From a virus (taxonomy: Duplodnaviria; Heunggongvirae; Uroviricota; Caudoviricetes), in IMG/VR virus record IMGVR_UViG_650377934_000001: a stretch of 39,680 nt of DNA; one strand, given 5' to 3'. The notes under the pieces were generated by a model. The model was not told the DNA's origin, did not search any database, and saw nothing but the letters and a program-made list of their open reading frames with translations. Position 1 is the first letter of the stretch; each line of letters starts with the position of its first letter. Below, piece after piece: positions 436 to 37,152 of the stretch. The position numbers and the translations under genes are program-made.

Positions 436-520
436 TGAAGCGGCGCACGAAAAACGCGAAAGCGTTTCACGATAAATGCGAAAACTTTAGCTTTCGCGCT
501 TCAAATGAAACAGATGTATT
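436..520. other. Mu right end (attR) with transposase-binding repeats
   Basis: TGAAGCGGCGCACGAAAAACGCGAAAGCGTTTCACGATAAATGCGAAAAC followed by an inverted GCTTTCGCG copy; repeated CGAAA(A/G) motifs as in the left end. Confidence 0.8.
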
Positions 521-550
521 AATTACTGCTTTTTATTCATTACATGGGGA

Positions 551-1276
551 TCACTTAGGGTATGGCTGAACCTTGAATAGTTTGGTATTTAGCCGCTTCC
601 TTGCTCGTTTGTTCAGGAATCTGATGTAGCGATACTGATTAAATTTGTGTACCACGGCACGCTCTTTATTAGCCCGTAAATACACGCCTCGTTGTCCACC
701 TCGCTTAATCGCGTTCATCGTTATCTCGTGATACCACTCACCATCCAGCTCGTAGAACGTACTTTCATGACTGCCAATAAAATCAAAATTCGACGCCTGA
801 TACACAACGCCTGCGCGTCCGCAGCGTTCATCTGCAAAGGACTGAACCCACTCCACTGACGGATACAGTAATCTGATAACTTTCAGCGCGTAGCTGATGG
901 CCCGTGATTCAGAGTTGCGGGGCATGTCGTCGTGTAGCCACATGCGGTTCAACTCCATATAGCCCCGGTTATCCGTTTCAAGCACGACACGACGACCTGA
1001 GTTGGGGTTAAGGGCATATCCCCACTGGAGAACGCCAACCAGATCGCGTCCGCTGAATACCCCCAGGTGAAGGTAAGAGTTATTCACAAAACGGCGGGAA
1101 TAGTGCTTTGTCTGAATAATTGTGCGGGCCAGCCAGCAGGATATGGTTTCAACGCGCAGCTCCTTTGAACCATAGCCAACAATCTGGCCTTCATACTCAA
1201 TAACGCACGGTTTCGTCAGAATGCGTGATTTTTTCTCTTTTCCCACAATGTTTCTCCGTGGGATGCTCGCAGGCAT
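551..1276 (-). CDS. mom: Mom DNA-modification protein (adenine modification, anti-restriction)
   Basis: 241-aa ORF; last gene before the right end; 5' end overlapped by com. Confidence 0.85.
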
Positions 1277-1385
1277 TCAGCATTATGATGTGACGTTTGC
1301 AACGCGGACACCTGATTTCAATGTGATCAAAGGAATCCGCCTTAAATAACAGTTTGTTGCAGTTTTTACAGCGAATTGATTTCAT
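1197..1385 (-). CDS. com: Com, zinc-finger translational activator of mom
   Basis: 62-aa ORF with CKNC...CPRC zinc ribbon; overlaps mom start by 80 nt; AAGGAGG Shine-Dalgarno just upstream. Confidence 0.85.
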
Positions 1386-1494
1386 CTCACCTCCTTTGCA
1401 TCAATTCGCCACTATCTTAAAAAACATCATGGGTTGAGTGTGGTTATTGGGGCATAATCGATCTGTATTACCGATCGATTTAATTGATTCGATC
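1386..1494 (-). promoter_or_regulatory. mom operon promoter/regulatory region with three clustered GATC (Dam) sites
   Basis: GATC at 1460-1463, 1473-1476 and 1491-1494 within 35 bp, upstream of com; the third lies in the last codons of gin. Confidence 0.7.
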
Positions 1495-2061
1495 GTCGTT
1501 TTCTATATGCGCTCGTTTCGCGGGGTGTTTTTTATACAGAGTTGACAGGGCCACATCGTAGATCAATGCAACCTGCTTGCGGGGGATTCCTTGTGCTAAT
1601 AAACGCCCGGCCTGCTCCCATTCCGCTTTGGTTAGTTTAGGTGGTCGCCCACCAATACGGCCTTTATTTCTGGCGGCAGCAAGTCCAGCCATCGTTCGCT
1701 CGATAATTAGTTCTCGTTCCATTTCAGCCAGGGCACCCATAACGTGGAAGAAAAAACGCCCCATTGGAGATGACGTATCAATACTGTCAGTAAGACTGCG
1801 AAAATTAATCCCTCGCTCTCGTAATTCCCCTACGAGAGAAATCAAATGTTTCATGCTTCGCCCGAGGCGATCCAGTTTCCAGACAACCAGTGTGTCACCT
1901 TTTTGAAGGCGCTTTAAAGCGCGTTTTAATCCCGGTCGGTCTGTCCTTGTTCCGCTTAATTTATCTTCAAATATTTGTTCACATCCTGCACAAACAAGAG
2001 CGTTTCGTTGCAGGTCTGTATTCTGGTCATTTGTTGATACCCTTACATAGCCAATCAGCAC
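1480..2061 (-). CDS. gin: Gin DNA invertase (serine recombinase)
   Basis: Resolvase-type N-terminus (L)IGYVRVSTNDQ with catalytic Ser, C-terminal HTH; probable GTG start at 2061 giving 193 aa (longest ORF extends to 2088); lies immediately outside the 34-bp inverted repeat. Confidence 0.9.
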   Translation of the reverse strand: MLIGYVRVSTNDQNTDLQRNALVCAGCEQIFEDKLSGTRTDRPGLKRALKRLQKGDTLVVWKLDRLGRSMKHLISLVGELRERGINFRSLTDSIDTSSPMGRFFFHVMGALAEMERELIIERTMAGLAAARNKGRIGGRPPKLTKAEWEQAGRLLAQGIPRKQVALIYDVALSTLYKKHPAKRAHIENDDRIN

Positions 2062-2115
2062 TCTGGATCTCCTGTTTAAAAGCGCCAATCATGCCATGCG
2101 TGCCAAAATCGACCA

Positions 2116-2149
2116 TTATCCAAAACCTCGGTTTACAGGAAACGGTAAA
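2116..2149. repeat. 34-bp inverted repeat (Gin recombination site) bounding the G segment, gin-proximal copy
   Basis: TTATCCAAAACCTCGGTTTACAGGAAACGGTAAA is the exact reverse complement of 5166-5199; identity stops on both sides. Confidence 0.9.
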
Positions 2150-3134
2150 CAGGGCTAGGAACGCCGTGCAAAAGAATGGCGATACCTTGTCCGGTGGGCT
2201 TACTTTTGAAAACGACTCAATCCTTGCCTGGATTCGAAATACTGACTGGGCAAAGATTGGATTTAAAAATGATGCCGACAGCGACACTGATTCATACATG
2301 TGGTTTGAAACAGGCGACAACGGCAATGAATATTTCAAATGGAGAAGCAAACAAAGCACCACAACAAAAGACCTGATGAATCTTAAATGGGATGCTTTGT
2401 CTGTTCTTGTCAATGCCATTGTAAATGGCGAAGTCATATCAAAATCAGCAAACGGCCTCCGTATTGCTTATGGTAATTACGGATTCTTTATTCGTAATGA
2501 TGGTTCAAATACATACTTCATGTTGACAAACTCCGGTGACAACATGGGGACTTATAACGGATTAAGGCCATTATGGATTAATAACGCTACTGGCGCTGTT
2601 TCGATGGGGCGTGGTCTTAATGTTTCAGGGGATACACTTTCAGACCGTTTTGCTATTAACAGCAGTAATGGTATGTGGATTCAGATGCGCGATAACAACG
2701 CTATCTTTGGGAAAAATATAGTTAACACTGATAGCGCTCAGGCGTTGCTTCGCCAGAATCACGCCGACCGCAAATTTATGATTGGCGGTCTGGGAAATAA
2801 GCAATTTGGCATCTACATGATTAATAACTCAAGGACAGCCAATGGCACCGATGGTCAGGCGTACATGGATAATAACGGAAACTGGTTATGCGGTGCTCAG
2901 GTCATTCCGGGAAATTACGCCAACTTTGACTCCCGCTACGTGCGTGACGTTCGGCTGGGAACTCAGTCACTGACTGGCGGCTTGTCTCGTGATTACAAGG
3001 CGCCATCCGGTCATGTTATTACAGGTTTTCATACCAATGGCGACTGGGAAATGCAGGGAGGGGATGACAAGGTTTATATCCGTCCGGTTCAGAAGAATAT
3101 CAACGGTACCTGGTATAATGTAGCGAGCGCCTGA
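2116..3134 (+). CDS. Silent alternative tail-fibre variable cassette (S' variable part), currently not fused to the constant S region
   Basis: Reading frame runs through the inverted repeat and encodes the same [11 protein letters not shown] junction peptide as S; the part of ORF 1890..3134 upstream of 2116 is antisense to gin and not genic. Confidence 0.75.
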
Positions 3135-3136
3135 TT

Positions 3137-3664
3137 ATGATGCATCTGAAAAACATTAAGTCAGAAAATCCAAAAACTAAAGAGCAATATCAGCTAACAA
3201 AGAATTTTGATGTTATCTGGTTATGGTCCGAAGACGGGAAAAACTGGTATGAAGAAGTAAATAACTTTCAGGACGACACCATAAAGATTGTATACGACGA
3301 AAATAATATTATTGTTGCCATAACCAAAGATGCCTCAACGCTTAATCCCGAAGGCTTTAGCGTCGTTGAGATTCCAGATATAACAGCCAACCGCCGCGCT
3401 GATGATTCAGGAAAGTGGATGTTTAAGGATGGAGCTGTAGTTAAACGGATTTATACGGCAGACGAACAGCAACAACAAGCCGAATCACAAAAGGCCGCAT
3501 TGCTTTCCGAAGCTGAATCAGTCATCCAGCCGCTGGAACGCGCTGTCAGGCTGAATATGGCGACGGATGAGGAACGCGCACGACTGGAGTCATGGGAACG
3601 CTACAGTGTTCTGGTCAGCCGTGTGGATACGGCAAATCCCGAATGGCCACAAAAGCCTGAATAA
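3137..3664 (+). CDS. Alternative tail-fibre assembly protein (U'), silent cassette
   Basis: 175-aa ORF, clear paralogue of U ([21 protein letters not shown]...DGKNWYEE shared N-terminus); convergent with U. Confidence 0.8.
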
Positions 3665-3669
3665 AAATT

Positions 3670-3689
3670 AAGGCCCGATAGCGGGCCTT
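3670..3689. terminator. Palindromic hairpin between the convergent U and U' stops (probable bidirectional terminator at the midpoint of the G segment)
   Basis: AAGGCCCG-ATAG-CGGGCCTT perfect 8-bp stem; followed by a T-run on the - strand (AATTTTTAT). Confidence 0.55.
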
Positions 3690-3692
3690 CTC

Positions 3693-4226
3693 TCATTCTG
3701 GTTGTTCTGGAAACGTTACTGGCAGGCTGGAGGTGTCTGTGGATTCGACCTTCTGCGCGTAGAGCATCCACTCTGTTAATTTTTGTTTATTCTCGTCGGA
3801 AATGATGCCCAGCCGTAGCTGTGAGTCCCATAGCTGTGTTTTATCCCTGACGAGCTGTAGCAGGCTTTGCTTTTCATTTTCCGCTTGTTGCCTCTGCTCT
3901 TCCTCGGTATAAGTTCGCTTTATCACTACACCATCTTTGAACATCCATTTACCCGAAATATCAGCCCGGCGATTTGCTGTAATATCAGGAACCTCAACGA
4001 CGTTTGCGCCTTCTGGATTAATTGCTGAAACATCCTTTTCAATACAAATAATAACGCCGTTGTGGTCATAGACCATTTTCAACGTATCAGGCTGAAAGTT
4101 CTTTTGTTCCTCATACCAGTTTTTCCCATCCTCTGTATAAAGCCATTTGATGTTAAATTGTTTCGTTAGCTGGTATTGCTCTTTTGTTTTAGGGTTGCCA
4201 GCAGTAATATTTTTTAAGTGCATCAT
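3693..4226 (-). CDS. U: Tail-fibre assembly protein U (expressed orientation)
   Basis: 177-aa ORF directly downstream of S on the late-operon strand; paralogue of U'. Confidence 0.8.
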   Translation of the reverse strand: MMHLKNITAGNPKTKEQYQLTKQFNIKWLYTEDGKNWYEEQKNFQPDTLKMVYDHNGVIICIEKDVSAINPEGANVVEVPDITANRRADISGKWMFKDGVVIKRTYTEEEQRQQAENEKQSLLQLVRDKTQLWDSQLRLGIISDENKQKLTEWMLYAQKVESTDTSSLPVTFPEQPE

Positions 4227-4228
4227 AA

Positions 4229-5695
4229 TTAAATACTCCCCGCGTTATACCACGTTCCATTAATGCAATACTGAATTGGCCTTGCCTGAGTTGTATCAAT
4301 TAATTCATCACGGTTTCCGTTAACTGAACCCGTAACGACATAACCTGACCTGTCAGACCAGCCGGGACCATTCCATGTCTGAACAGATGACAGACCGCCA
4401 AGACGAATACCTGTAATAAACCTTGAGTTACATTCTGCCTGCGTATATGCACCAACATCTCCCGCTGATGGCTTACGTGTTGTGGTGTAAATTTCTGACC
4501 AGTCAGCTTCGAATCCGTAACCATCACGCGCTGAACGATAAAAAATACCGCCGTTCCTGTAATTCACACGGAACTGTACGGCAGGGCAACTCCCCGTATT
4601 CATATTGAAGTGGAGGATTAATGTCGATGCGCCACCAATATTTGCGTTATAGACCCCGCTATTCCAGTTCCAGCCAACAGCTTTATCATTTCCGACAGTG
4701 CTTCCTGTTTGTCCTAAAGCAAATGCAGGCTGCTGGTTTTTCGTGTTGTAGTCTCGTCGCCAGCCAGGAGCATAAGCATCACCATGATTAATATAAGTGA
4801 ATTGAGCGTTAGTGATTCCGCCGCCGCTGGACGTACTCGGCGTAGTAACGCGTATGGTCATTGCGCCGCGAGTGCCAATAACTTCCACCACAGCACCTGC
4901 AAGACAAATATTTCCGCAACCTGTATCTGTAATGACCTTATTGTTTGCATAAGCCCATGAGCCTTTGCACATCCAGTAAGGATGGTTAAATGCCCCCTGA
5001 CTCTCCAGCCACGAAATAAATTGTGCGGTTGTCCAGACCTGACTATCGCCACCAATATTCAGCCATGCGCTATATGCGCGACAGGCCCCAATATTTTTGG
5101 TGAAGGTATCTTTTCCTGGAATATCTGCGCCGTTCTGGTTTTGCTGTAATGCGCCAGAAGCCTGATTTACCGTTTCCTGTAAACCGAGGTTTTGGATAAA
5201 CAGCGGCTTATTGGGAATATCTGCTCCGTTCCGGTCTTTTGCCAGACGGGCATTGGCATTATCCATTGCAATTTTCACCGCTTTTGCGGTGGCTGCCAGC
5301 GTTTCACTGGGGCTGTCAGTGGCACTGGTTAGCTGAACGAGTCCTTTTTTGTTCAGGCTGGCATCATAGATATCCAGATTTTCACGTGCTGTACGCTGTG
5401 CTGATGCCCCGGCAGTTTTAATTTCGCTGAGGTTATTTTTTATCAGCAGCGCGTTATTGCTCATAATGGCTTTAATGGACAGTGCAAGCTGGTTTAATTT
5501 TGTTTTATCCGGTTGAATACCGGCTTCTTCCAGCGTGTTTAATAACTCCGCCTGCACAATATTAAACCAGTCCATGCCGGGCCATGTGATAACATTATTC
5601 CCGTCACCTTCTGAAAACCAGCGAACGATAGCACTACGCTGGGCGGATACGGGCGGCATGACGGTTACGCCGCTGTCGTTATCAATATAAAACAT
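4229..5695 (-). CDS. S: Tail-fibre protein S (constant part 5200..5695 fused in-frame to the variable part inside the G segment)
   Basis: 488-aa ORF spanning the inverted repeat at 5166-5199; start overlaps the stop of the upstream baseplate gene (ATGA). Confidence 0.85.
   Translation of the reverse strand: MFYIDNDSGVTVMPPVSAQRSAIVRWFSEGDGNNVITWPGMDWFNIVQAELLNTLEEAGIQPDKTKLNQLALSIKAIMSNNALLIKNNLSEIKTAGASAQRTARENLDIYDASLNKKGLVQLTSATDSPSETLAATAKAVKIAMDNANARLAKDRNGADIPNKPLFIQNLGLQETVNQASGALQQNQNGADIPGKDTFTKNIGACRAYSAWLNIGGDSQVWTTAQFISWLESQGAFNHPYWMCKGSWAYANNKVITDTGCGNICLAGAVVEVIGTRGAMTIRVTTPSTSSGGGITNAQFTYINHGDAYAPGWRRDYNTKNQQPAFALGQTGSTVGNDKAVGWNWNSGVYNANIGGASTLILHFNMNTGSCPAVQFRVNYRNGGIFYRSARDGYGFEADWSEIYTTTRKPSAGDVGAYTQAECNSRFITGIRLGGLSSVQTWNGPGWSDRSGYVVTGSVNGNRDELIDTTQARPIQYCINGTWYNAGSI
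5166..5199. repeat. 34-bp inverted repeat (Gin recombination site) bounding the G segment, S-proximal copy, inside the S coding sequence
   Basis: TTTACCGTTTCCTGTAAACCGAGGTTTTGGATAA = reverse complement of 2116-2149. Confidence 0.9.
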
Positions 5696-6237
5696 TAGTT
5701 ATCTCCGTCATGGTAAACAAATTTATAAATCTGATGCGCGGGTTTATATTTCTCCAGTAAACATTCCAGCGCACCCGATTCATAAACACGTAACGGCGTC
5801 AGAACATTATCCAGCACCGTTGCGTTGCGATAATTTTTAATACCGTAAATATTGACCTGCGTAACCCACTGGCCTTCTGTGGAATCCGTCAGCCTGACGG
5901 TAAAACCGTACTGCGCAGCCAGCCATTCATAAAAGCGCCGACTCAGATTGCCGGTCATACGCATTTTATTCGCGGCAGCCCGCTGGCGTTCGGACAGGGT
6001 GCCGTTTTCGCTGGTACAGTCCGGCAACCCCAGAAATGATTCCCACTCCCCCAGATACCAGCGGGATGTGGACGGGAAACGCTCCCGCAGCATTTGCCGC
6101 GCATCATCCGCCGCAGTGGCAATCACGTCGCTGATGGCCTGCGCCAGCGCAGATAATTTGCTGTCGGGGCTTTTATTCCAGGCAAGCCCTGACGGCAGTA
6201 ATTGCAGAAAGGCCGTCTGCCAGGGTGTTACAGCCAT
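5695..6237 (-). CDS. Baseplate/tail protein (Mu gp48-like, P2 gpI-like)
   Basis: 180-aa ORF in baseplate block, coupled to neighbours. Confidence 0.65.
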   Translation of the reverse strand: MAVTPWQTAFLQLLPSGLAWNKSPDSKLSALAQAISDVIATAADDARQMLRERFPSTSRWYLGEWESFLGLPDCTSENGTLSERQRAAANKMRMTGNLSRRFYEWLAAQYGFTVRLTDSTEGQWVTQVNIYGIKNYRNATVLDNVLTPLRVYESGALECLLEKYKPAHQIYKFVYHDGDN

Positions 6238-7310
6238 TCAATTGTCCCCGCTGTTAAGAGTTCCGTATTCTCCGAACGCTGGATCTCTGTCGGGAAACGC
6301 ACTTCAAAATCATCCAGACCGGTAACACCTGCCACCGCACGGATAATACGGGAGGGGGCAAGTGCGCCGCCCGGCATCACCTCATTAAAAAACATGGTAT
6401 TAATGGCGTTGGTAATAGCCTGTTTCAGTTCGGCTGTCTTCGGTGATATATAAATCCGTGGATTTACCGGCTTTGCCTTTGGCGCAAATACCGTGACATT
6501 TACACCGTCAGGCTGTCCGACAATCAGACCAGTGATCGGGTCAGTATGACCGGCGATATAATCCGCCACGCGTTCCACGTCTGCCGGTTGCGGAAAAATA
6601 TTGCTCCGGTTATCCATAACAAACGTCACCCCGACTGTGCCACCGCCTTTCCATGTCGGAAAACACCAGGCACGGGTAACACCGCTGACTTCACGTGCCC
6701 AGCGAACGTAATCAAACTGATTACCGCCGAACGGAGGATACTGGACACGATATTCCAGCCGTGACAGCAGCTCCGCTGCACTCTCAATATCAGCTCCACC
6801 GGAAAACCCTTTTACAGTGATGGCATCGGAAACAACACAGGCAACCGGGGTGATCAACGTTAAAAGGGTATTCTCACCGGTATTTCCTGCTTCACCGGCA
6901 GCCAGTGCGGTAACGGTAATTTCCGTCGTTCCTGCACGGTCAATCACAATGGTATCAGCCAGGCTGTAAACCACACCATCAGCACGCTGCCAGCGTGTAC
7001 CGGCAGGAATGGTGGTCGCTGCCGATGTGGTGACAGTCAGCGGGCCGCTGGCGGCTGTCGCCTGTTTGCGGCGCACGCCCCAGAACCGGCAGTGCTCCAG
7101 CAACTCATCTTCATCTGCTGTCGACGGGATAATCTGCCGTCCAACCCATGAAATATGCTCGTGACAACCGGCAGCAAGGCCCGCCTGAGCATAAGCAATG
7201 GCACTCAGCGTTTTTTCACGGGCCTGAGGCCAGCTACCCGGCAGGCGCTGTTCAATATTCTGTTCTGTACGGGCAATCAGCGATGATAATGTCGGTGGTG
7301 AATAAGCCAT
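6228..7310 (-). CDS. Baseplate wedge protein (baseplate J-like, Mu gp47-like)
   Basis: 360-aa ORF, position and size typical of baseplate J family. Confidence 0.7.
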   Translation of the reverse strand: MAYSPPTLSSLIARTEQNIEQRLPGSWPQAREKTLSAIAYAQAGLAAGCHEHISWVGRQIIPSTADEDELLEHCRFWGVRRKQATAASGPLTVTTSAATTIPAGTRWQRADGVVYSLADTIVIDRAGTTEITVTALAAGEAGNTGENTLLTLITPVACVVSDAITVKGFSGGADIESAAELLSRLEYRVQYPPFGGNQFDYVRWAREVSGVTRAWCFPTWKGGGTVGVTFVMDNRSNIFPQPADVERVADYIAGHTDPITGLIVGQPDGVNVTVFAPKAKPVNPRIYISPKTAELKQAITNAINTMFFNEVMPGGALAPSRIIRAVAGVTGLDDFEVRFPTEIQRSENTELLTAGTIEWL

Positions 7311-7748
7311 TTAAACCCCGTTAAATGCTGCTTTAAACTCATAAGGAATAACGGAACCATCCGGTAATGTCAGTGCAATGTAGAGGTATAACCAGCCCTG
7401 ATGTAACTGTTCCGCTCTGACGTTAATCGCACTTACCCGGCCCGCTGTTTTCAGCCATTCCAGCGCCTCTTCGGCATACCCTCTGGCGCGTTCCAGCGTA
7501 TCCGGCGTGGCTTTTTCACGTGATAACAGCCACAACCGCGAACCGATGGGGCGGTCGCGGTAACTGTCACCCCACCATCCACGGCGATCATCTGAACCAT
7601 CCGGCAGCGTGTCAGAATCCAGCGCGCGCCGGTCGGTAAACAGGGAGATTGTCACATCGGTTGTCAGGCTGTCGTCGGTCAGCATATCAATACCATCCTG
7701 CGCAATATCGCCGCGTCCGTTCGTCCAGATAATGGCTAAATCGGTCAT
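7311..7748 (-). CDS. Baseplate protein (gp25/GPW-like, Mu gp46-like)
   Basis: 145-aa ORF in conserved baseplate order. Confidence 0.65.
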   Translation of the reverse strand: MTDLAIIWTNGRGDIAQDGIDMLTDDSLTTDVTISLFTDRRALDSDTLPDGSDDRRGWWGDSYRDRPIGSRLWLLSREKATPDTLERARGYAEEALEWLKTAGRVSAINVRAEQLHQGWLYLYIALTLPDGSVIPYEFKAAFNGV

Positions 7749-8338
7749 TGCATCGGCCCTGTGGTTCCGCCGCTGTCGCCACGGTGGATATGCTTATCCG
7801 TCGATTTGCCATTGATGATGGCATCCGGGGCAGTAATATTGCTGTCGAACTGGCTTTTACCTTTAACGCCCAGACCTTTCTGGATCTCAACGTCGCCGGT
7901 AAACGTGGTTCTGGGTGTGTCAACGGTCATACTTTCATCAGCGTAAACCTCAACCGTTTTACAGGTAATGATGCAGCGTCCGTCCTTTGTCAGCCTGATA
8001 CGATGCCCCTCGTGGTGGTAAATGCCTGCATCACCCGGTTCAAGATTTGTCGGGCGGTAGCGGCGGTCTTCCACCACAACAGCAATCCCCTGATCACGTT
8101 GTGCGCCTACACAGGCAATCAGCGCCTCTGCGCCCGGCAGGGGAACGCTGAAATGCCCGTAATTTTGCAGGCGCTCCACTTCATCGGATTCCTCATCATC
8201 CAGCAGACCGACCTGCAGGTTCTGAACCTTTCGCCCGTCGTTAATCACGTTAACAACAGCGCGCGCAAGCATCAGGCGCACACGACGCATCAGCGGCGTC
8301 AGCAGGCGGTTCAAGGCGGAATCATTTACTCTTTCCAC
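7745..8338 (-). CDS. Baseplate central spike / puncturing device (Mu gp45-like)
   Basis: 197-aa ORF following the hub gene. Confidence 0.65.
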   Translation of the reverse strand: MERVNDSALNRLLTPLMRRVRLMLARAVVNVINDGRKVQNLQVGLLDDEESDEVERLQNYGHFSVPLPGAEALIACVGAQRDQGIAVVVEDRRYRPTNLEPGDAGIYHHEGHRIRLTKDGRCIITCKTVEVYADESMTVDTPRTTFTGDVEIQKGLGVKGKSQFDSNITAPDAIINGKSTDKHIHRGDSGGTTGPMQ

Positions 8339-27322: not shown

Positions 27323-27331
27323 GGTGCCCCT

Positions 27332-27905: not shown

Positions 27906-27952
27906 GATGATTTTCCCCGGTACGGTTATTCATCACAGGATATTGAGGACGT

Positions 27953-27977
27953 AAAAAAAGCCGGATTAACCGGCTTT
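27953..27977 (-). terminator. Intrinsic terminator downstream of mor (end of early operon)
   Basis: On the - strand AAAGCCGG-TTAAT-CCGGCTTT followed by TTTT, 6 nt after the mor stop; about 9.2 kb from the phage left end. Confidence 0.75.
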
Positions 27978-27982
27978 ACTGT

Positions 27983-28920: not shown

Positions 28921-28990
28921 GATCGTACCTCCGGAAAGGGGGCGGTGCTGCAACACCGCCTGAATTTACACATCAATCAGAGAGGATTTT

Positions 28991-29513: not shown

Positions 29514-29682
29514 AATTCATGCACGCTGTGTCATCGCCCATATCGCAGTGGTTGCATTTCAGCCCGCCACAATGAGGGCACTCTTTCAGATATTCAGGGG
29601 ATTCATTACCGCAGGTCGGGCATTCCTGTTTCACCGTGGTGAATTTCCCCAGCCACGAATACGATGTTTTATTGTTTTCCAT
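29500..29682 (-). CDS. Cys-rich zinc-ribbon mini-protein
   Basis: 60-aa ORF with CPTC...CPHC...CNHC...CMNC. Confidence 0.55.
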   Translation of the reverse strand: MENNKTSYSWLGKFTTVKQECPTCGNESPEYLKECPHCGGLKCNHCDMGDDTACMNCEGE

Positions 29683-30199
29683 TGTTTACCTCCGCCTGTT
29701 TTTGCGCCCGGATAAATTCGTCAGAAAGGATTTCAGTCATGCGGCCTTGCGCGGGTGTCATCCCCGTCATGACGTAAATCACATCACCAACACGGAACCA
29801 CTGGAGCGGCCCGAATATTGTTGCGCTGAAATCCAGTCCCAGTGCGGGTAAAAGAGCGTCTGTGCGGGCGTAAGTGACCGGAATATTCTCCTGCCATATT
29901 TTCGCCAGCTCTCTTGCCTGCTCCCTGAGATGAGCAGGTATCCGCGAAGTTCTGGGCCTGCAACTGTTACCTGATGCGGGCCGTTGTACGGTCCACAGCT
30001 CCCGCGAGAAAGGGCGCTCATTCCCCGGAAAGTTCACACCATGAAAATAACGCCCACCAATACTTGTGCTGAATACTGACCGGCAACCACAACCCAGAAC
30101 CTTATCAAGATGGCGGGCTTCTTCGCGTAGTTTCAGACAGTCCGCCATAAACTGGTCCCACGCCAGCAGTGCTGCGGGATTTGACGTTTTAAAAAACAT
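29669..30199 (-). CDS. Early accessory protein, function unknown
   Basis: 176 aa from the MFFKTSNP Met, which forms an ATGA overlap with the upstream stop. Confidence 0.55.
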   Translation of the reverse strand: MFFKTSNPAALLAWDQFMADCLKLREEARHLDKVLGCGCRSVFSTSIGGRYFHGVNFPGNERPFSRELWTVQRPASGNSCRPRTSRIPAHLREQARELAKIWQENIPVTYARTDALLPALGLDFSATIFGPLQWFRVGDVIYVMTGMTPAQGRMTEILSDEFIRAQKQAEVNNGKQ

Positions 30200-30729
30200 C
30201 ACGCCACCTCCTGCACCGCTGCGGGAGCCGGAGAACAATCAAGAATGAGATAACGCAGTACATGGTCGGTGATATTCCAGACGCTTGAACTGCAAATAAA
30301 ACGCCCCAGCCGGATATCGATATAAGCCATCACAAAACGGGGCATTCCCTGTTCGCACATTCTGTTATCCACCTCAGCAACAATGTGGACTGACTCACAG
30401 GTCAGCACGCCCGTCGCAAACTCTTTTGCCAGCGCGGGGATGGTATTACCTTCCACCCAGGGTAATGAGCGACGCCAGTTGCACCACACCGCATCATCAA
30501 CAGCAGGCTGCTCAGTTGCGTTTCGTCTTACAGGCGGCGTCGGACGCGGGCGCGGAACGTCATAAAATCCGTTGCATTCGGTGAGCACTCCGGCATCAAC
30601 CGCATCACGCAGGAAATACACCATTGACGAGGGCAGCATATTCATTTTTTCAGCCAGAACTCCGCAGGTCAGGCGTCCGTAAGCCCGTAATAATGTGCTG
30701 ACACCATTCAGAATTTTTGCATCAACCAT
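30199..30729 (-). CDS. Early accessory protein, function unknown
   Basis: 176-aa ORF downstream of gam. Confidence 0.55.
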   Translation of the reverse strand: MVDAKILNGVSTLLRAYGRLTCGVLAEKMNMLPSSMVYFLRDAVDAGVLTECNGFYDVPRPRPTPPVRRNATEQPAVDDAVWCNWRRSLPWVEGNTIPALAKEFATGVLTCESVHIVAEVDNRMCEQGMPRFVMAYIDIRLGRFICSSSVWNITDHVLRYLILDCSPAPAAVQEVA

Positions 30730-30827
30730 GTTTTATTCCTCAGTAATCTGTTTCAGGCGCGAGCAATCTCCTGACGTATCGCGCCATAATTAAAAGAATG
30801 TGAATTAATTAAATATTAATGGTGGTA

Positions 30828-31352
30828 TTAAATACCGGCTTCCTGTTCAAATGGAATAATAGAAAAATCCTCAATGCCTGATTTAACTGTAATTCCGGCA
30901 ACGCCTGCGACCGCTTTCGGTTCCAGTAAAATCGCTTCCTTGTTGATTTCCTGCTTCGTGCGAATAAAGCGTTGCAGGCCAAGACGCTCCAGCGTTTCCA
31001 TCACTGCATCCATACCACGAATACTTACTGATGGTGGACGGACCCGCCACGATACATCACCGGTGACAAGATTCGCCGTCTTCACTTTGCCGCCGTTCGT
31101 CAGTTCGTCGCGGTTCGCTTCACACCATCCCTGAACGCCTTTTGAAAGGGTTTCAATATCGGTTTTAATCGGTGCAATCCGGGCCGCAAATTTCTCCGTA
31201 ATTTCCGCGATGGCATCATTCATTTCCGTTTCCAGACGTGATGCTTCGCGCTGTAAATCCCCGATGCGTTTAATATCGGTAATCACCGCATCGCGGTTTT
31301 GTGGCACATAAGCCGCTGCGGCACTCTTGATACGTTTTGCTGGTTTAGCCAT
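30828..31352 (-). CDS. gam: Gam, DNA-end-binding host-nuclease inhibitor (Ku-like)
   Basis: 174-aa ORF; sequence and size match my recollection of Mu Gam. Confidence 0.85.
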   Translation of the reverse strand: MAKPAKRIKSAAAAYVPQNRDAVITDIKRIGDLQREASRLETEMNDAIAEITEKFAARIAPIKTDIETLSKGVQGWCEANRDELTNGGKVKTANLVTGDVSWRVRPPSVSIRGMDAVMETLERLGLQRFIRTKQEINKEAILLEPKAVAGVAGITVKSGIEDFSIIPFEQEAGI

Positions 31353-31371
31353 AAATTAAAGCTCCTGTTAA

Positions 31372-31671
31372 TTAATATCCGCTGTATACAATGCTGGATA
31401 CAGCTCGATTGCTTAATTCCATCTTTCGGGCAATAACATGAATATCCAGTCCTTCTTTATAAAGTTCACGACATAAATATTTGTCGTGTTCACTGATTCG
31501 GTATACACACAATGATATTCCGTGCCTTCTGGCATGTGCCCGGAGGGCGGTTGTGGCGACTTTCAGTTTTTCCGCCATTTCTTCAACGGTCATTTTCCCG
31601 ACGTTGGCTTCGATAAATTCCCGGTCTTCGCGTGACCAGCGCTTACGATTACACTTCATGTCAGTCACCAT
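31372..31671 (-). CDS. Early accessory protein, function unknown
   Basis: 99-aa ORF. Confidence 0.5.
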   Translation of the reverse strand: MVTDMKCNRKRWSREDREFIEANVGKMTVEEMAEKLKVATTALRAHARRHGISLCVYRISEHDKYLCRELYKEGLDIHVIARKMELSNRAVSSIVYSGY

Positions 31672-32115
31672 TCAGTACAGCAGAGGCTCGCGCAGTGATG
31701 CCGGAATATGCCGCAGCGATAACTGAACCGCTTTCAGGGCAAGCGAGGAATAACAGCAGCGCGCCCAGCCTTTTGCCATTAACCGGTAATCGCGCCAGAT
31801 ACGCTGCCACATTTCACGGGCTTCAGGGTCTGATGCGCAGATGTATTCCCGGTCCATGACGTACTCCCATAAATCCACGTTAAACGCATCGCCAGACGCA
31901 ATGGCGCGGGATATGCTTTCGCCGCAATAACGCGCACAGATGCTGTAATGGTCGAAAGTAATCAGGTAAGTTTTTTCACCATAGCCATCAACTTCACGCG
32001 CACAAATAAACTCGCGTAATTCACCACCGTTGTTATTGCGTTCCTGAATTCGGATTAATGCCTGAATTTCATTTCGGATTTTGACATTCATTGTCAGCGT
32101 TCCTTTCAGTGACAT
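31672..32115 (-). CDS. Early accessory protein, function unknown (alternative start at 32091)
   Basis: 147-aa ORF, Cys-containing. Confidence 0.5.
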   Translation of the reverse strand: MSLKGTLTMNVKIRNEIQALIRIQERNNNGGELREFICAREVDGYGEKTYLITFDHYSICARYCGESISRAIASGDAFNVDLWEYVMDREYICASDPEAREMWQRIWRDYRLMAKGWARCCYSSLALKAVQLSLRHIPASLREPLLY

Positions 32116-32369
32116 GTTTTTTCAACAGCCATTTCAGTGACACGACCACTGGTGATGACACCATCGTTTTTCAAAATCTCAATAGCTTCATGGGCTGACT
32201 CATTAATTATTTTCTGGCTTTTATTAAGCACCAGTAACGCCACCATGCCAGCAAGTGTACCCTCATCACCGTCCAGTTCCGCACTACCGTCCACCGCAAT
32301 GCTGGTGCGCAAATTCCGTCCTTTAATTCCAGATACTGTATTTTTAATTTCAATAATTACTTTTGCCAT
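32106..32369 (-). CDS. Early accessory protein, function unknown
   Basis: 87-aa ORF. Confidence 0.5.
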   Translation of the reverse strand: MAKVIIEIKNTVSGIKGRNLRTSIAVDGSAELDGDEGTLAGMVALLVLNKSQKIINESAHEAIEILKNDGVITSGRVTEMAVEKTCH

Positions 32370-32380
32370 TTTGTTTCACC

Positions 32381-32611
32381 TTATTGATTCTGAATAACCG
32401 CGCTGGCTTTTACCTTCGCGCCTTTTACCTGTTTAAAGAAAACTGCGCTGCACCACGGACAACATGTCAGGGAATCCCGAATTTCCTTTTCGGGTGAGCA
32501 TTGCGTCATAATCTGTTCACCACATCCGGGGCATTTATATGTCGTCAGCGGCACCCCGTGGCACTGACAGTGTTTAACCCATTCAATATATTTTTCAGCT
32601 TTAATACACAT
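32381..32611 (-). CDS. Cys-rich small protein (putative zinc-binding)
   Basis: 76 aa from the Met at 32611 preceded by GGAG; CQCHG...CPGCG...CCPWC. Confidence 0.5.
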   Translation of the reverse strand: MCIKAEKYIEWVKHCQCHGVPLTTYKCPGCGEQIMTQCSPEKEIRDSLTCCPWCSAVFFKQVKGAKVKASAVIQNQ

Positions 32612-32613
32612 CG

Positions 32614-32838
32614 TTATCTCCAGATAATCTGGCAACCATTAAGACGGGCCGTCCATACAGAACGGGCCACCCCGGACTTATGCTCCATAATTCTGACCGC
32701 GTTTTTTACCAGTTCCACCGGTGGGTAAGTGATTTCAAGAATCGGACGCGCCACGCCGAGATATGATTCATTTACATGACTCCCGCGCGCCTGTAACCAG
32801 TTCTGCGCATCCGTTGCCATTTTTATATTTCGGGCCAT
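32614..32838 (-). CDS. kil: Kil-like host-killing/cell-division inhibitor
   Basis: 74 aa from second Met; first ORF downstream of B, assigned by position and size. Confidence 0.6.
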
Positions 32839-32856: not shown

Positions 32857-33795
32857 TTAATTACGCAGCAGCGTTGAAATATCAACGTCCAGGTCTAATT
32901 CACGGAAAGCCTGACGCAGATAATCTTCGTTAACACGCTCACCTTTACCGTGAGCCGTCATGGCTGCAAGGCGAAGTGAATGATTCAGAATGCGAAGCGC
33001 ACCTGGTTTCTGCGCAATCTGCTGTAATAACTCCAGTTCTTTTTCGCCGTTAATCTGCCAGGCATCCGCAATAGCTTTTACATCGGCTTTTTTGGTTTTA
33101 TTAATTGCAGTGCGCTTTGCAATACGGGAAAACAGACGGGCAAATTCAACCGTTCTGTTACCCCCCGTCATATTTGAATAAACCCGGTGATTTCCCATCA
33201 GCACAAGGCCAATACGGGTTGATTCCTGTAACAGGCGGAGTTCTTCCAGAACTTCGGCACCAAGATGATCAGCTTCGTCGATGATAACCAGCCCCTGTGT
33301 ACCTTCAAGGCGACGTCGCAGGGCGCGGGAGAGCGGCCCTTTACGGCGTGGTGCGTCATTCATTCCCAGCTCAAACGCCAGTTCAGTAAGACATTCCAGA
33401 ACGCTGGCACAGGATGGCGTAATGGTGATCATCCAGACATTGTTATTGGTGCGGCGATATTCACGGGCCGCTTCGGTTTTGCCCACACCAGGATTGCCAC
33501 ATACAACAGCAATACTTTCAGTCAGGCTGGCAAAACGCATACTTGTCCAGATTTGTTTTACCGTCTGCGTTTCCACAAAGCGGGGCGGTTCAGGTAGTTC
33601 TGCCACTGCATGATATTTTTCCAGCCAGCGTTGCAGCATTTGTGAAACACGCTCGTTATCCCCGTTGTACTTATCATTGATAAAACTACTGATAGTTCCG
33701 GTAGAAAGCCCGCTCTCAAGAGCAATTTGTTTAAAGGTGGTTTCTTCATTTTCTACAAGCGTGCGCAGTCCTGCGCGAATATCGGAAATATTCAT
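32857..33795 (-). CDS. B: Transposition ATPase / target DNA activator MuB (AAA+)
   Basis: 312-aa ORF; Walker A GNPGVGKT and Walker B LVIIDEADHL; N-terminus MNISDIRAGL. Confidence 0.95.
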   Translation of the reverse strand: MNISDIRAGLRTLVENEETTFKQIALESGLSTGTISSFINDKYNGDNERVSQMLQRWLEKYHAVAELPEPPRFVETQTVKQIWTSMRFASLTESIAVVCGNPGVGKTEAAREYRRTNNNVWMITITPSCASVLECLTELAFELGMNDAPRRKGPLSRALRRRLEGTQGLVIIDEADHLGAEVLEELRLLQESTRIGLVLMGNHRVYSNMTGGNRTVEFARLFSRIAKRTAINKTKKADVKAIADAWQINGEKELELLQQIAQKPGALRILNHSLRLAAMTAHGKGERVNEDYLRQAFRELDLDVDISTLLRN

Positions 33796-33833: not shown

Positions 33834-35825
33834 TTAAATGGCTTTTTTACGTCTGTTCTGTTCCAGAATATCCAGCGAATGATTCAGATATTCATCACGC
33901 TCAGTTTCGTATTCATCATCACGCTCCTGATTCTTCACCCGTTCCGTATTACCGGAAGGCCGGAAAATACCAACAATTCGTGATTCTGGTGCTGCTGGTT
34001 CGGCTATCTGCGGCAGCAGTTCAGCAACTTCCAGCGCGTCCATTTGTTTCTGCGCCTTAATGGCTGCTTTCGTCGCAGATTTCAGTTGTTTCTGGCGGCG
34101 GCGATATTCACGGCCTGCCGCAGCATCATTAAATGCAACAGGTGCCAGACATTCCGCTTCACAGATAAACCGACCGTCCAGGGTGTAGCAATAAACCGTG
34201 CTGTGTAGCTGCTGCGGATCAAACCTGACCACAACTTTTTTCACGCCGGCATTCATTAATGCCATGTTGTAATAAACGTTTTTCGCGCCTTTAAGGGAGC
34301 CGCCAACTTTAAGCGTAAACTCGCCTTTGCGTGAAACGTTCACCGCCTCGGCAGGCAGTAACAGCATCCGTTTTTGTTCTTCGGTTGGCTTACGCACAAT
34401 CGTTCTGGCGTATTCACGCTCGAAAACATCATCAAACGAGAGTTTGCCCCCGCACATTTCTGTTTCACGGCCTGTTCTGGCATTGAACATCGCCACACCT
34501 TCGGCAAGGGTTTTCAGAAACAGCTCTGCATCAACAGCGCGGTCGCCATAGTTATCAGGTTTTGCCTGCGGATTTGGCCCCGTATATGCGCCAGCCAGTG
34601 CCGGATGCTTATCAACGTATTCCTCAAGCCCACCAACACCGAAAGCACGTTCAACAGGTTTTGCCTGGCCCCAGCCTTTACCGGCAACAACGCTTGTCCA
34701 GTGCATTTTCGCCCCCATCAGTAAAAACAGTCCTTTTGGATCGTCCTCTTTTACCTTAAAGCGGTAGCGATTGGGCGCGCCTCCCGTCAGCCATTTATTC
34801 GCAGCACCACGGGTGTTATCAATGGTGATGTGAAAATCCTCCGGGATACCGTAGCGAGTCACAACATCCATGAACGAGAGGCGAATTGAATCAATGTTCT
34901 CGCTCACATCGCAGCGCCAGCCCAGAATTTTTCGGGTTTTCACATCCTGCCAGAACCATGTTTTCGGACGGATCACATCACCGTTAAACCAGCGTACAAA
35001 GACGTTATGCAGATAACCGTCGCCGTTGATCCACTGCATGGCGTCCAGGTGTTCCACAGTTCGCTGCTGTGCCGGTATCAGATGCATCAGTGCATGTTCA
35101 CCTTCACGACAGGCAACAACCATTGCCTCGTCCAGTTGCTGAATCCGGCGAAAGGCCGTGGCACGGGAGGGAATACTCCAGCCATGCTCGCGGGCTGCCA
35201 GTTCCAGACGCTCATAACATTTGCGGAAAGCGGGTTTTTCCGGTCGCAGATAATCTGCAATCAGAAACTGCCAGGCATCCTCGTCAAATTCACTTTTGTG
35301 AACATTGCGACGGGATGCTCCACGTCCATCAACAAGTGCAGCCGCCCAGTCAGGCTTCGCAAACTTCTGTACCTGGTAATACTTGTCCCGCAAAGTGGAT
35401 GCGCTGACCTGGTAATGCCCTGCAACGGTCGCAAAAGCCGTTTTCGTTGAAATCCCCTGGTTCAGCATTTCGTCTGCAGCCTGAACCGCAGGCAACCATT
35501 TTTCAGCAAGTCTGCGCTGGGAATCGCTGGCGTTATCCCATTTGCTCCACAGTGCCTCACGATCATAATCATGGGCTTCCAGCGTGGGGCGGGCGATTTC
35601 AAAATACCCCAGGCTTGTTTCAATCTCTCCTTGTCTCAGCAATAACGCCGCTTTCGCTTCAACAGGTAAAGAGTTCGCATTGTATTCAATTGCTTTACCA
35701 CCTTTGACACCTGCTCTAGTGCGGTTTTGCCATCCTTGCTTTTTAGCAACATAAATCACACCAGCCGATGTTTTCGGCAAACCAGGAAGATTCGCACACT
35801 CTTTCGGTGATACCCAAAGTTCCAT
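33834..35825 (-). CDS. A: DDE transposase MuA
   Basis: 663 aa from MELWVSPKE (longest ORF begins with a GTG at 35834); N-terminal enhancer-binding domain homologous to repressor c. Confidence 0.95.
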
Positions 35826-35826
35826 G

Positions 35827-36054
35827 TTATTCACCTGCTTGATATCGGCTAGGCCAGATTACTTCCGGTTTAGTTTCTAAGGCGTTAGCAATAATCTGCT
35901 CACCCTTTGGCCAGTGTCGTTCTAGCGCATTAGCTAATGTAGTTGGCGCATAACCAAACTGCCGGGAAAGAGCTGATAAAGAGAGCTTTCTTTTCTTAAG
36001 TCCCGCAATCACATCCGCACGATGCCAATCACGGGCCTTTTCGTTGGAACACAT
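35827..36054 (-). CDS. ner: Ner, negative regulator of early transcription (DNA-binding)
   Basis: 75-aa ORF directly upstream of A, divergent from c. Confidence 0.9.
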
Positions 36055-36223
36055 TTAAAAACCCTCCTAAGTTTTGTAATCTATAAAGTTAGCAATTTAA
36101 CTAAGTGTAAAAACTTAGCTAGCTTACTAAAAAGATAATTACTGAAAAGCTTTTTGTAAAGCTGCTTTTTGGTAAATTCCTTTGATTACTGATTAACGCG
36201 TTGATAAATAAGGAGTTTAAATT
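36055..36223. promoter_or_regulatory. c-ner divergent promoter/operator region (early promoter, repressor promoter, operators, transposition enhancer)
   Basis: 169-bp AT-rich gap between divergent c and ner genes, about 0.93-1.1 kb from the left end. Confidence 0.7.
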
Positions 36224-36814
36224 TTGAAAAGTAACTTTATAGAAAAGAATAATACTGAAAAGTCAATTTGGTGTTCGCCGCAAGAAATTATGGCTGCTGA
36301 TGGTATGCCTGGATCTGTTGCTGGTGTTCACTATCGAGCAAATGTTCAAGGCTGGACGAAGCGAAAAAAGGAAGGTGTCAAGGGGGGGAAAGCTGTTGAA
36401 TACGATGTGATGTCGATGCCCACCAAAGAACGAGAGCAAGTTATTGCGCACTTGGGGTTATCCACACCGGATACTGGTGCTCAAGCCAATGAGAAACAGG
36501 ATTCTTCGGAACTGATAAACAAATTAACCACAACCTTAATCAATATGATTGAAGAGCTGGAACCAGATGAAGCACGCAAGGCACTGAAACTTTTAAGTAA
36601 AGGGGGGTTGTTGGCGTTAATGCCTCTTGTATTTAATGAACAGAAACTTTACAGCTTTATAGGATTTTCACAGCAAAGTATTCAGACGTTGATGATGCTA
36701 GATGCATTACCTGAAGAAAAACGCAAAGAGATTTTGTCAAAGTATGGGATTCATGAACAGGAAAGTGTTGTAGTACCTTCACAGGAACCACAGGAGGTAA
36801 AAAAAGCCGTATAA
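36224..36814 (+). CDS. c: Lysogeny repressor c
   Basis: 196-aa ORF with TTG start preceded by AAGGAG; N-terminal domain clearly homologous to the MuA N-terminus. Confidence 0.9.
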   Translation: MKSNFIEKNNTEKSIWCSPQEIMAADGMPGSVAGVHYRANVQGWTKRKKEGVKGGKAVEYDVMSMPTKEREQVIAHLGLSTPDTGAQANEKQDSSELINKLTTTLINMIEELEPDEARKALKLLSKGGLLALMPLVFNEQKLYSFIGFSQQSIQTLMMLDALPEEKRKEILSKYGIHEQESVVVPSQEPQEVKKAV

Positions 36815-36949
36815 CAACCATGAACCAGCTAAAACATACTTCACCTCACATAATCACACATGTAACATACCTAAACGGCATAAGCTGATTTGTGATATGA
36901 GTCATTTGGTGACAGCTTGGTTGTTATCGGTTTTGAACGTTTTTTGAAG

Positions 36950-37152
36950 CTGTTATTGAAATGATTTGCAGTGTTTTTGTTTTTCGTATTTTCAATGAAA
37001 CAAAAGCAATTTTTTACTATCTTTCGCGTTTCATTGATTAACGACTAAAATTTGCACTACAGGCTTGCAAGCCCCACCAAATCTAATCCCATCAGATCCC
37101 GAATAATCCAATGTCCTCCCGGTTTTTTTCGTACTTCAAGTGAATCAATACA
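36950..37152. other. Mu left end (attL) with transposase-binding repeats
   Basis: Reverse complement reads TGTATTGATTCACTTGAAGTACGAAAAAAACCGGGAGGACATTGG...; repeated CGAAA(A/G) motifs. Confidence 0.85.

What the first reader, a model, noticed from the sequence alone, without database searches (positions are those of the whole stretch)
436..37152. Intact Mu-type transposable prophage with exact termini and a perfect 5-bp target-site duplication
The + strand begins 5'-TGAAGCGGCGCACGAAAAACGCGAAAGCG at 436 and ends ...CTTCAAGTGAATCAATACA-3' at 37152, i.e. the Mu right and left ends (5'-TG...CA-3') in inverted orientation. Both ends are flanked by GCGGC, which fits the Mu target preference N-Y-S-R-N. 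The element is 36,717 bp, which matches my recollection of the Mu genome size, and the gene order is collinear with Mu throughout. All transposition, regulatory and structural genes appear full-length, so the element looks competent for induction and replicative transposition. There is no room for extra cargo.
Basis: partly seen in the sequence, partly recalled or inferred. Interest (0 to 1): 0.55.

Follow-up and report, generated by a model that had tools for sequence, protein, structure and literature searches.

The report
Wild-type phage Mu prophage, E. coli W
This is a complete, apparently intact copy of the classic transposable bacteriophage Mu sitting in the second flagellar gene cluster of an Escherichia coli W-type chromosome, an insertion already described when that strain's genome was published, so it is real but ordinary.

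Summary
Window 436-37152 is 36,717 bp, starts with the reverse complement of the Mu right end and finishes with that of the left end. GCGGC lies on both sides (431-435, 37153-37157). An uninterrupted copy of the site in E. coli ATCC 8739 has one GCGGC, so this is a true 5-bp target duplication.

The element is phage Mu itself. Against reference AF083977 it has no indels and three substitutions. Two substitutions are synonymous. The third makes repressor residue 47 Arg, as in the solved repressor domain, where the reference has Gln. I recall Gln47 as the cts62 heat-sensitive allele. If so, this prophage is c+ and should not be heat-inducible.

All 51 reference genes outside G are intact, as are S' and U'. 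The flanks and insertion site match E. coli W-lineage genomes exactly. Archer et al. 2011 already reported a Mu prophage in a non-coding part of W's Flag-2 locus.

Competence for induction and transposition is inferred from sequence, not shown. Verdict: already known, low interest. One curiosity is that this copy equals the consensus of the laboratory Mu sequences compared.

The parts
431..435 (.). Target-site duplication copy 1 (GCGGC), next to the Mu right end
   Evidence: The empty site in ATCC 8739 has a single GCGGC.
436..515 (-). Mu right end (attR). The terminal ~80 bp carry the MuA-binding sites R1-R3. The extent of the sites is from general knowledge of Mu; the sequence equals the reference.
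   Evidence: Identical to the end of AF083977.
551..1246 (-). mom, the DNA adenine-modification enzyme
   Evidence: Identical to reference Mu_53. Pfam Mom family, E=2e-75.
1197..1385 (-). com, the translational activator of mom
   Evidence: Identical to reference Mu_52.
1480..2061 (-). gin, the serine invertase that flips the G segment
   Evidence: Identical to the reference. Pfam Resolvase plus HTH_7.
2116..5199 (.). Invertible G segment with its 34-bp inverted repeats (gix sites, 2116-2149 and 5166-5199), here in the G(-) orientation relative to AF083977
   Evidence: Inverting Mu 31954-35037 is the only rearrangement needed to restore identity. The inverted repeat was found. SL112, B-766 and S17-1 have the opposite orientation.
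4229..5695 (-). S' tail fibre, 488 aa. The constant N-terminal 177 aa shared with S are fused to the S' variable part. This is the expressed form in this orientation.
   Evidence: Pfam Phage_fiber_2 and gp37_C.
3693..4226 (-). U' tail-fibre assembly chaperone, 177 aa, expressed form
   Evidence: Pfam Caudo_TAP.
2150..3664 (+). Silent alternative cassette: the S variable part (ending at 3134) and U (3137-3664). It is promoterless in this orientation.
   Evidence: Matches reference S/U once inverted.
5695..16199 (-). Tail and baseplate genes (gp48 back to K)
   Evidence: All CDS intact. One synonymous change at 7644 in gp46.
16199..24837 (-). Head and packaging genes (D, E, H, F, G, I/Z, T, gp35, J), including the central strong gyrase site (cut site at 19273-19274)
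   Evidence: All CDS intact. One synonymous change at 17881 in T. Gyrase site position mapped from the reference annotation.
25136..28372 (-). Lysis genes (lys, spanins, gp25), late activator C (26768-27190) and middle activator mor (27983-28372)
   Evidence: Identical to the reference.
28369..32838 (-). Semi-essential early region (kil, gam, gemA and small early ORFs)
   Evidence: Identical to the reference.
32857..33795 (-). B, the AAA+ target-DNA activator
   Evidence: Identical to the reference. Pfam Phage-MuB_C plus AAA_22.
33834..35825 (-). A, the DDE transposase MuA
   Evidence: Identical to the reference. Pfam DDE_2, HTH_Tnp_Mu_1, HTH_Tnp_Mu_2 and Mu-transpos_C.
35827..36054 (-). ner, negative regulator of early transcription
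   Evidence: Pfam HTH_35.
36055..36223 (.). Operator, early-promoter and transpositional-enhancer region between ner and c
   Evidence: Identical to the reference. Promoter features at Mu 991-1101 are from the reference annotation.
36224..36814 (+). c repressor with Arg47. The codon is CGA; its middle base is at 36363. The reference has CAA (Gln).
   Evidence: PDB 1G4D/1QPM repressor domain has Arg47. The same protein accession, WP_000840061.1, is annotated in SL112, B-766, HBUT-L and S17-1.
36973..37152 (-). Mu left end (attL). The terminal ~180 bp carry MuA sites L1-L3. The extent of the sites is from general knowledge of Mu.
   Evidence: Identical to the start of AF083977.
37153..37157 (.). 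Target-site duplication copy 2 (GCGGC)
1..396 (+). Host flank: a cytidylyltransferase-family gene of the Flag-2 (second flagellar) locus. It is not part of the phage.
   Evidence: Pfam CTP_transf_like. RefSeq context is fliF-fliJ homologues upstream.
37236..39680 (-). Host flank: an 814-aa glycosyltransferase of the Flag-2 locus, uninterrupted. It is not part of the phage.
   Evidence: Pfam Glycos_transf_2. RefSeq annotation.

Best explanation
Window 436-37152 is a full-length prophage of bacteriophage Mu (Muvirus mu), inserted in reverse orientation into a REP-type intergenic repeat. The site lies between a cytidylyltransferase gene and a glycosyltransferase gene of the Flag-2 lateral-flagellar locus, on an E. 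coli W-lineage chromosome.

How it got there is inferred from established Mu biochemistry. MuA cleaved at the terminal CA dinucleotides and joined the 3' ends to target phosphates staggered by 5 bp. Gap repair then produced the GCGGC duplication.

In the lysogen, the c repressor (here with Arg47) should hold the early promoter off. When repression fails, MuA and MuB would copy the element to new sites by replicative transposition. The Mor and C cascade would then turn on lysis, head and tail genes.

The Gin invertase flips the G segment. This copy was sequenced in the G(-) state, which expresses tail fibres S'/U'.

Shown here: identity, boundaries, the duplication, intact reading frames, the G orientation and the repressor allele. 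Inferred: that the prophage is actually inducible and able to transpose.
For: Identity to Mu. The element equals AF083977 apart from inversion of the G segment and three substitutions, with no indels. Two substitutions are synonymous and the third is c Q47R. All 51 reference CDS outside G are intact, and S' (488 aa) and U' (177 aa) are intact. Pfam independently recognises MuA, MuB, c, Ner, Gin, Mom and the tail-fibre proteins.

Insertion site. The empty site has a single GCGGC. The same insertion is present in B-766, which is identical over all 39,680 bp apart from G orientation, and in SL112, which has one further SNP.

Prior publication. Archer et al. [quoted passage not shown]

Gin activity. 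G orientation differs between otherwise identical genomes, which is the expected footprint of an active Gin/gix system.

Mu rather than a relative. D108, SfMu and similar phages match at only 95-98% identity with partial coverage.
Against: Nothing in the sequence argues against this reading. What is missing is functional evidence: no induction, plaque or transposition data were available here. In SL112 and B-766 only one copy of the Mu A gene was found, so there is no sign of recent spread in those genomes. A wild-type repressor also means the standard heat-induction test would be uninformative.
Confidence: 0.97

Rival explanations
1. The prophage is complete in sequence but functionally dead or permanently silent. 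Under this reading it is a domesticated remnant rather than a competent phage.
For: No functional data were obtained. SL112 and B-766 each show only one place matching the Mu A gene. The insertion has stayed at one site across separately kept W-lineage stocks.
Against: Every reading frame and both ends match functional laboratory Mu. The Mu copy in S17-1 differs from it by one base. G inversion has occurred between sister genomes, so at least gin and gix work. A stable single copy is what a c+ lysogen is expected to look like.
Confidence: 0.07
2. The element is a Mu-like relative such as D108 or SfMu, or a wild E. coli Mu-like prophage, rather than Mu itself.
For: About 84 of 5,426 complete E. 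coli genomes carry a related transposase gene. Mu-like prophages are therefore not rare.
Against: Identity to AF083977 is 36,714 of 36,717 bases once the G segment is flipped. D108, SfMu, Mu_3F6 and the Yersinia Mu-like phages match at 95-98% with gaps in coverage. Most wild E. coli prophages match the A gene at 96-98%.
Confidence: 0.01
3. The junctions are an assembly chimera or in-silico contamination with the Mu reference sequence.
For: The length equals the reference exactly, and near-perfect identity could in principle suggest contamination.
Against: The sequence differs from the reference at three bases and in G orientation. Both junctions recur in four separate assemblies. An engineered derivative carries an FRT scar flanked by 70 bp of each Mu end at exactly this site, so experimenters physically targeted this prophage. 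The duplication matches the empty site.
Confidence: 0.01

Closest known systems
Bacteriophage Mu reference genome (AF083977 / NC_000929; Morgan et al. 2002)
   Same: Same length (36,717 bp), same ends and same gene content. 36,714 of 36,717 bases are identical after the G segment is flipped.
   Different: The G segment is in the opposite orientation, G(-) rather than G(+). The c repressor has Arg47 where the reference has Gln47, which I recall as the cts62 allele. There are two synonymous changes, in T codon 45 and gp46 codon 35. At these three sites, the Mu copy in lab strain S17-1 agrees with the window, not with the reference (for the synonymous sites; for the shared c protein accession).
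Mu prophage of E. coli W (ATCC 9637) as published by Archer et al. 2011, and the same prophage in B-766, SL112, HBUT-L and hubt-sl
   Same: Same chromosomal site in the non-coding part of the Flag-2 locus, same duplication and same flanks. B-766 is base-for-base identical over the 39,680-bp window apart from G orientation.
   Different: G orientation only. SL112 also has one extra SNP, at window 19815. In HBUT-L and hubt-sl the prophage has been caught up in a large inversion.
Mu copy in the laboratory K-12 conjugation donor S17-1 (RP4-2-Tc::Mu)
   Same: 36,717 bp with one base difference from the window's element after the G flip, and the same c protein accession.
   Different: It has a different insertion site, in the mhp region. 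Its flanks do not form a 5-bp duplication, as expected for one copy of a Mu-plasmid-Mu cointegrate. It is in the G(+) state and has one substitution in the S variable part.
Mu-like phages D108, SfMu, Mu_3F6, PhiR68_1 and Yersinia vB_YpM phages
   Same: Same genome organisation and transposition module, with 95-98% identity over most of the genome.
   Different: Their immunity and early regions diverge, and parts of the tail-fibre and right-end regions do not align at all. Coverage is 75-96%.

Membership tests
Bacteriophage Mu (species Muvirus mu) | Near-identity to the reference genome along its full length | tested here: met
   Three substitutions, no indels and one programmed inversion over 36,717 bp.
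Bacteriophage Mu (species Muvirus mu) | Termini 5'-TG...CA-3' with the Mu left-end and right-end sequences | tested here: met
   Both ends are identical to AF083977.
Bacteriophage Mu (species Muvirus mu) | 5-bp direct duplication of the target, verified against an unoccupied site | tested here: met
   GCGGC lies on both sides, and ATCC 8739 has one copy at the same site.
Bacteriophage Mu (species Muvirus mu) | DDE transposase MuA and AAA+ ATPase MuB, both full length | tested here: met
   Proteins are identical to the reference. Pfam DDE_2 at E=2e-136 and Phage-MuB_C at E=5e-34.
Bacteriophage Mu (species Muvirus mu) | c repressor and Ner switch beside the left end | tested here: met
   c is intact with R47 and ner is intact. 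The repressor domain is identical to PDB 1G4D.
Bacteriophage Mu (species Muvirus mu) | Invertible G segment with gix repeats, a Gin invertase and two tail-fibre gene sets | tested here: met
   Orientation is polymorphic among sister genomes.
Bacteriophage Mu (species Muvirus mu) | com/mom DNA-modification module at the right end | tested here: met
Bacteriophage Mu (species Muvirus mu) | Actual induction, replicative transposition and plaque formation | not testable with these tools
   This needs culture work. Only sequence intactness was shown.
Heat-inducible Mu cts62 (the usual laboratory allele) | Repressor substitution Arg47 to Gln. The assignment of this change to cts62 is from my recollection of Vogel et al. 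1991, J Bacteriol 173:6568. I could not retrieve that paper here. | tested here: not met
   The window has CGA (Arg) at codon 47 and AF083977 has CAA (Gln). The solved repressor domain has Arg.

The most novel reading that the evidence does not exclude
The W-strain prophage may be the natural source of the canonical laboratory phage Mu, or its closest surviving witness.

Supporting points:
- At every site where the three compared Mu copies differ (reference AF083977, S17-1's Mu and this one), this copy agrees with one of the other two. It therefore equals their consensus.
- The same insertion is shared by separately kept W-lineage stocks: ATCC 9637, B-766 and the KO11/LY180-derived SL112.
- W was isolated around 1943 and archived early (PMC3032704).
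- Mu surfaced only in the late 1950s, in a single K-12 Hfr stock, and the account read here gives no source for that lysogeny (PMC3562280).
- Most other Mu-like prophages in E. coli genomes are 2-4% divergent in the A gene.

The alternative is that an early W stock was lysogenised by laboratory Mu. I cannot exclude this. I also did not establish when the stock lines separated, and I do not know whether the idea has already been stated in print.
Probability: 0.35. Interest if true: 0.3.

Novelty: already known. Interest (0 to 1): 0.08.

Why it matters
It matters little for discovery. Mu is one of the best-studied mobile elements, and this insertion is in the published E. coli W genome paper.

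It has three practical uses:
- It flags that W-derived industrial strains carry a complete, wild-type, probably active transposable phage. At least one engineered derivative has had it deliberately deleted.
- It gives a clean c+ sequence. Three bases of the standard reference, including the Q47 repressor allele, are absent from all four other copies compared.
- It offers a worked natural example of a Mu insertion with a verified empty site.

If the W prophage proved to be the original source of laboratory Mu, that would be a modest historical footnote.

Tried and rejected
Literature on cts62. I tried to confirm 'cts62 = R47Q', and that AF083977 derives from a cts62 stock. Four full-text searches and one look-up by PubMed id found nothing usable. 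The allele name therefore rests on my memory. The residue difference itself, and Arg47 in the solved repressor domain, are tool results. M64097, an older Mu left-end record, also has T at Mu position 790 (Gln47), so it did not help decide which state is wild type.

RNA scans. The Rfam gathering-threshold scan and the tRNA scan of the whole window found nothing.

Evidence of activity in W. A search for published evidence that W's Mu is released or active found none.

Other readings considered and rejected. I rejected a Mu-like relative because identity is too high, an assembly chimera because independent assemblies and an engineered scar share the site, and extra cargo because the length equals the reference with no indels.

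HBUT-L. I first read the separated junctions in HBUT-L/hubt-sl as a possible sign of Mu replicative transposition. The breakpoints instead lie inside Mu and next to an IS10-like element and a truncated frdA. That points to recombination with an imported Mu/Tn10 remnant, so I do not count it as evidence of activity.
Full report
**Observation**

TGAAGCGGCGCACGAAAAACGCGAAAGCG begins at 436 and ...CTTCAAGTGAATCAATACA ends at 37152. GCGGC sits immediately outside each end, at 431-435 and 37153-37157. The element is 36,717 bp long, the same as the Mu reference AF083977.

**Identity**

Megablast against phage records gave Escherichia phage Mu (AF083977 / NC_000929) at 100.0% displayed identity. The left-hand 16.7 kb of Mu matched in one piece. 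The rest matched in two pieces, with about 15% of the query placed elsewhere in the record.

A base-by-base comparison explains this. After reverse-complementing the window element, the only differences from AF083977 are these:
- An inversion of the G segment. The unique part is Mu 31988-35003. The flanking 34-bp inverted repeats allow any breakpoint between 31954 and 35037. In window coordinates this is 2116-5199.
- Three substitutions, at Mu 790, 19272 and 29509 (window 36363, 17881 and 7644).
- No insertions or deletions.

Relatives such as D108, SfMu, Mu_3F6 and the Yersinia Mu-like phages match at only 95-98% with incomplete coverage. This is Mu itself, not a cousin.

**The three substitutions**

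| Mu position | Window position | Gene and codon | Change (reference to window) | Effect |
|---|---|---|---|---|
| 19272 | 17881 | T (major capsid), codon 45 | ACG to ACC | synonymous |
| 29509 | 7644 | gp46, codon 35 | TCT to TCC | synonymous |
| 790 | 36363 | c repressor, codon 47 | CAA (Gln) to CGA (Arg) | Q47R |

The solved DNA-binding domain of the Mu repressor (PDB 1G4D / 1QPM, residues 13-81) is identical to the window protein and has Arg47. The homologous domain of MuA also has Arg at the aligned position.

From memory, Arg47-to-Gln is the cts62 temperature-sensitive mutation (Vogel et al. 1991). I could not retrieve that paper, so the allele name is recollection. The residue states are tool results.

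The practical consequence is that this prophage most likely carries the wild-type c+ repressor. It should not respond to the 42 C shift used for laboratory Mu cts lysogens (that procedure is described in PMC9239132, and PMC13219725).

At both synonymous sites, the Mu copies in lab strain S17-1, in SL112 and in B-766 have the window's base, and AF083977 is the odd one out. Those copies also share the window's c protein accession, WP_000840061.1. The three differences therefore look private to the reference.

**Gene integrity**

All 51 reference coding sequences outside the G segment translate without interruption. All are identical in protein to the reference except for c Q47R.

Within G, the orientation in the window fuses the constant part of the tail-fibre gene (177 shared N-terminal residues) to the S' variable part. 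This gives a 488-aa S' (4229-5695, minus strand). It is followed by U' (177 aa, 3693-4226, minus strand). The alternative S variable part and U (3137-3664, plus strand) are intact but face away from the promoter.

A 34-bp exact inverted repeat, extendable to 41 nt at 93% complementarity, bounds the segment.

Pfam independently recognises the following:
- MuA: DDE_2, two Mu DNA-binding domains and Mu-transpos_C
- MuB: Phage-MuB_C plus an AAA domain
- c
- Ner
- Gin: Resolvase plus HTH_7
- Mom
- the tail fibre and its chaperone

No Rfam family or tRNA gene was found in the window.

That is a normal programmed state, not damage.

**Target site**

The flanks are host genes. A cytidylyltransferase-family gene occupies 1-396 on the plus strand. 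An 814-aa family-2 glycosyltransferase occupies 37236-39680 on the minus strand. In RefSeq genomes both lie inside a second flagellar gene cluster, between fliF-fliJ homologues on one side and flgN-flgE homologues on the other.

In E. coli ATCC 8739 the intergenic sequence reads cttgccggatGCGGCgtaaacgccttatccggcctacagg. It has a single GCGGC, and the two half-queries overlap by exactly 5 bp in that genome. This proves a 5-bp target duplication.

The target is a REP-type palindromic repeat. GCGGC fits N-Y-(G/C)-R-N on both strands; that consensus is from general knowledge of Mu.

**Source and prior knowledge**

Both junctions occur at 100% identity in four complete genomes: SL112, B-766, HBUT-L and hubt-sl.
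- B-766 is identical to the window over all 39,680 bp apart from G orientation.
- SL112 has one additional SNP, at window 19815.
- SL112 descends from the ethanologenic strain LY180 (PMC9118994). From memory, LY180 is itself a KO11 derivative.
- KO11 is a W strain (PMC3032704).

[quoted passage not shown] It also says that among the four safe strains Mu is found only in W (PMC3032704). The finding is therefore already published.

**Mechanism**

Shown here: identity to Mu, exact ends, the duplication, intact genes, the G(-) state, the Arg47 repressor, and G-orientation polymorphism between otherwise identical genomes. That polymorphism implies working Gin and gix.

Inferred from established Mu biology (summarised in PMC3562280): MuA nicks at the terminal CA and transfers the 3' ends to target phosphates 5 bp apart. 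On derepression, the element replicates by repeated transposition with MuB choosing targets. Late genes then build particles.

Whether this particular copy is inducible was not tested and cannot be tested with these tools.

**How common it is**

The Mu A gene is matched in 84 of 5,426 complete E. coli genomes. It is 100% identical only in the W-lineage genomes and in the laboratory K-12 donors S17-1 and ST18. Most other prophages are 96-98% identical.

S17-1's Mu differs from the window's element by a single base, in the S variable part, after the G flip. At every variable site among the three copies compared (AF083977, S17-1 and this one), the window copy agrees with one of the other two. It therefore equals their consensus.

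Three further facts bear on origin:
- W was isolated about 1943 and archived early.
- The same insertion occurs in separately kept stock lines.
- Mu was first seen in the late 1950s in a single K-12 Hfr stock, and the account read here gives no source for that lysogeny.

This leaves open the modestly interesting possibility that W is the natural source of laboratory Mu. The reverse, that a W stock was lysogenised in the laboratory, is not excluded.

**Verdict**

The element is already known and the interest is low.

Noticed in passing
L004 (NZ_CP026085.1 3777900-3779500), corresponding to window 366-505 and 37083-37225: Two 4.83-Mb genomes labelled 'DH5alpha' (NZ_CP026085, NZ_CM135829) carry W-type flanks. 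In NZ_CP026085 the Mu interior is replaced by a Datsenko-Wanner-type FRT scar. The scar keeps 70 bp of each Mu end and both GCGGC copies. NZ_CM135829 shows the same match pattern but I did not read its sequence. This looks like a deliberately Mu-deleted W-like strain whose strain label is wrong.
   Followed up: partly
L006 (NZ_CP104442.1 386000-432000) and L009 (980000-992000); also NZ_CP104206.1: In HBUT-L and hubt-sl the two Mu-host junctions are about 559 kb apart and inverted. In HBUT-L, the left junction keeps only Mu 1-2173. It is followed by 21 nt of an inverted Mu right end and then the frd region. The full Mu copy's left end abuts an IS10-like ISVsa5 and a truncated frdA. My reading is a large inversion by recombination between the resident prophage and a Mu/Tn10 remnant brought in with an frd allele. 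That is inference, not shown.
   Followed up: partly
window 421-435 and 37153-37230: The insertion splits a REP/BIME-type palindromic repeat (gccggatgcggc | gtaaacgccttatccggcctac). A second REP-like unit follows at about 37197-37225. Neither neighbouring gene is interrupted.
   Followed up: partly
window 1-396 and 37236-39680: The flanking host genes are a small cytidylyltransferase-like protein and an 814-aa protein. The larger one combines a family-2 glycosyltransferase domain with a weak, below-threshold CDP-glycerol glycerophosphotransferase-like match. Both sit inside the Flag-2 flagellar cluster. They may form a flagellin or surface glycosylation pair. Their function was not examined.
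   Followed up: no
L001 (AF083977) positions 790, 19272 and 29509, equal to window 36363, 17881 and 7644: The standard Mu reference differs from all four other copies compared (window, B-766, SL112, S17-1) at these three bases. The two synonymous ones may be private mutations of the sequenced stock or reference errors.
   Followed up: partly
L007 (NZ_CP040667.1 3029771-3068487): The Mu copy examined in S17-1 has different sequence on its two sides (…GCAGACCCGC and CCGGCCGCGC…), with no 5-bp duplication. A Mu right end also lies about 73 kb from the left end of the copy examined. This fits a Mu-RP4-Mu cointegrate made by replicon fusion.
   Followed up: partly
window 551-1276: The RefSeq annotations of SL112, B-766 and S17-1 call mom a 'hypothetical protein' of 726 nt, using an upstream ATG. 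HBUT-L and hubt-sl annotate it as a 'tRNA(Gly)-dependent adenine aminoacyltransferase Mom'. That name fits a 2026 paper, 'A single viral enzyme drives tRNA-dependent hypermodification of DNA at adenine' (PMC13219725), whose methods use Mu mom+ and mom- lysogens.
   Followed up: no
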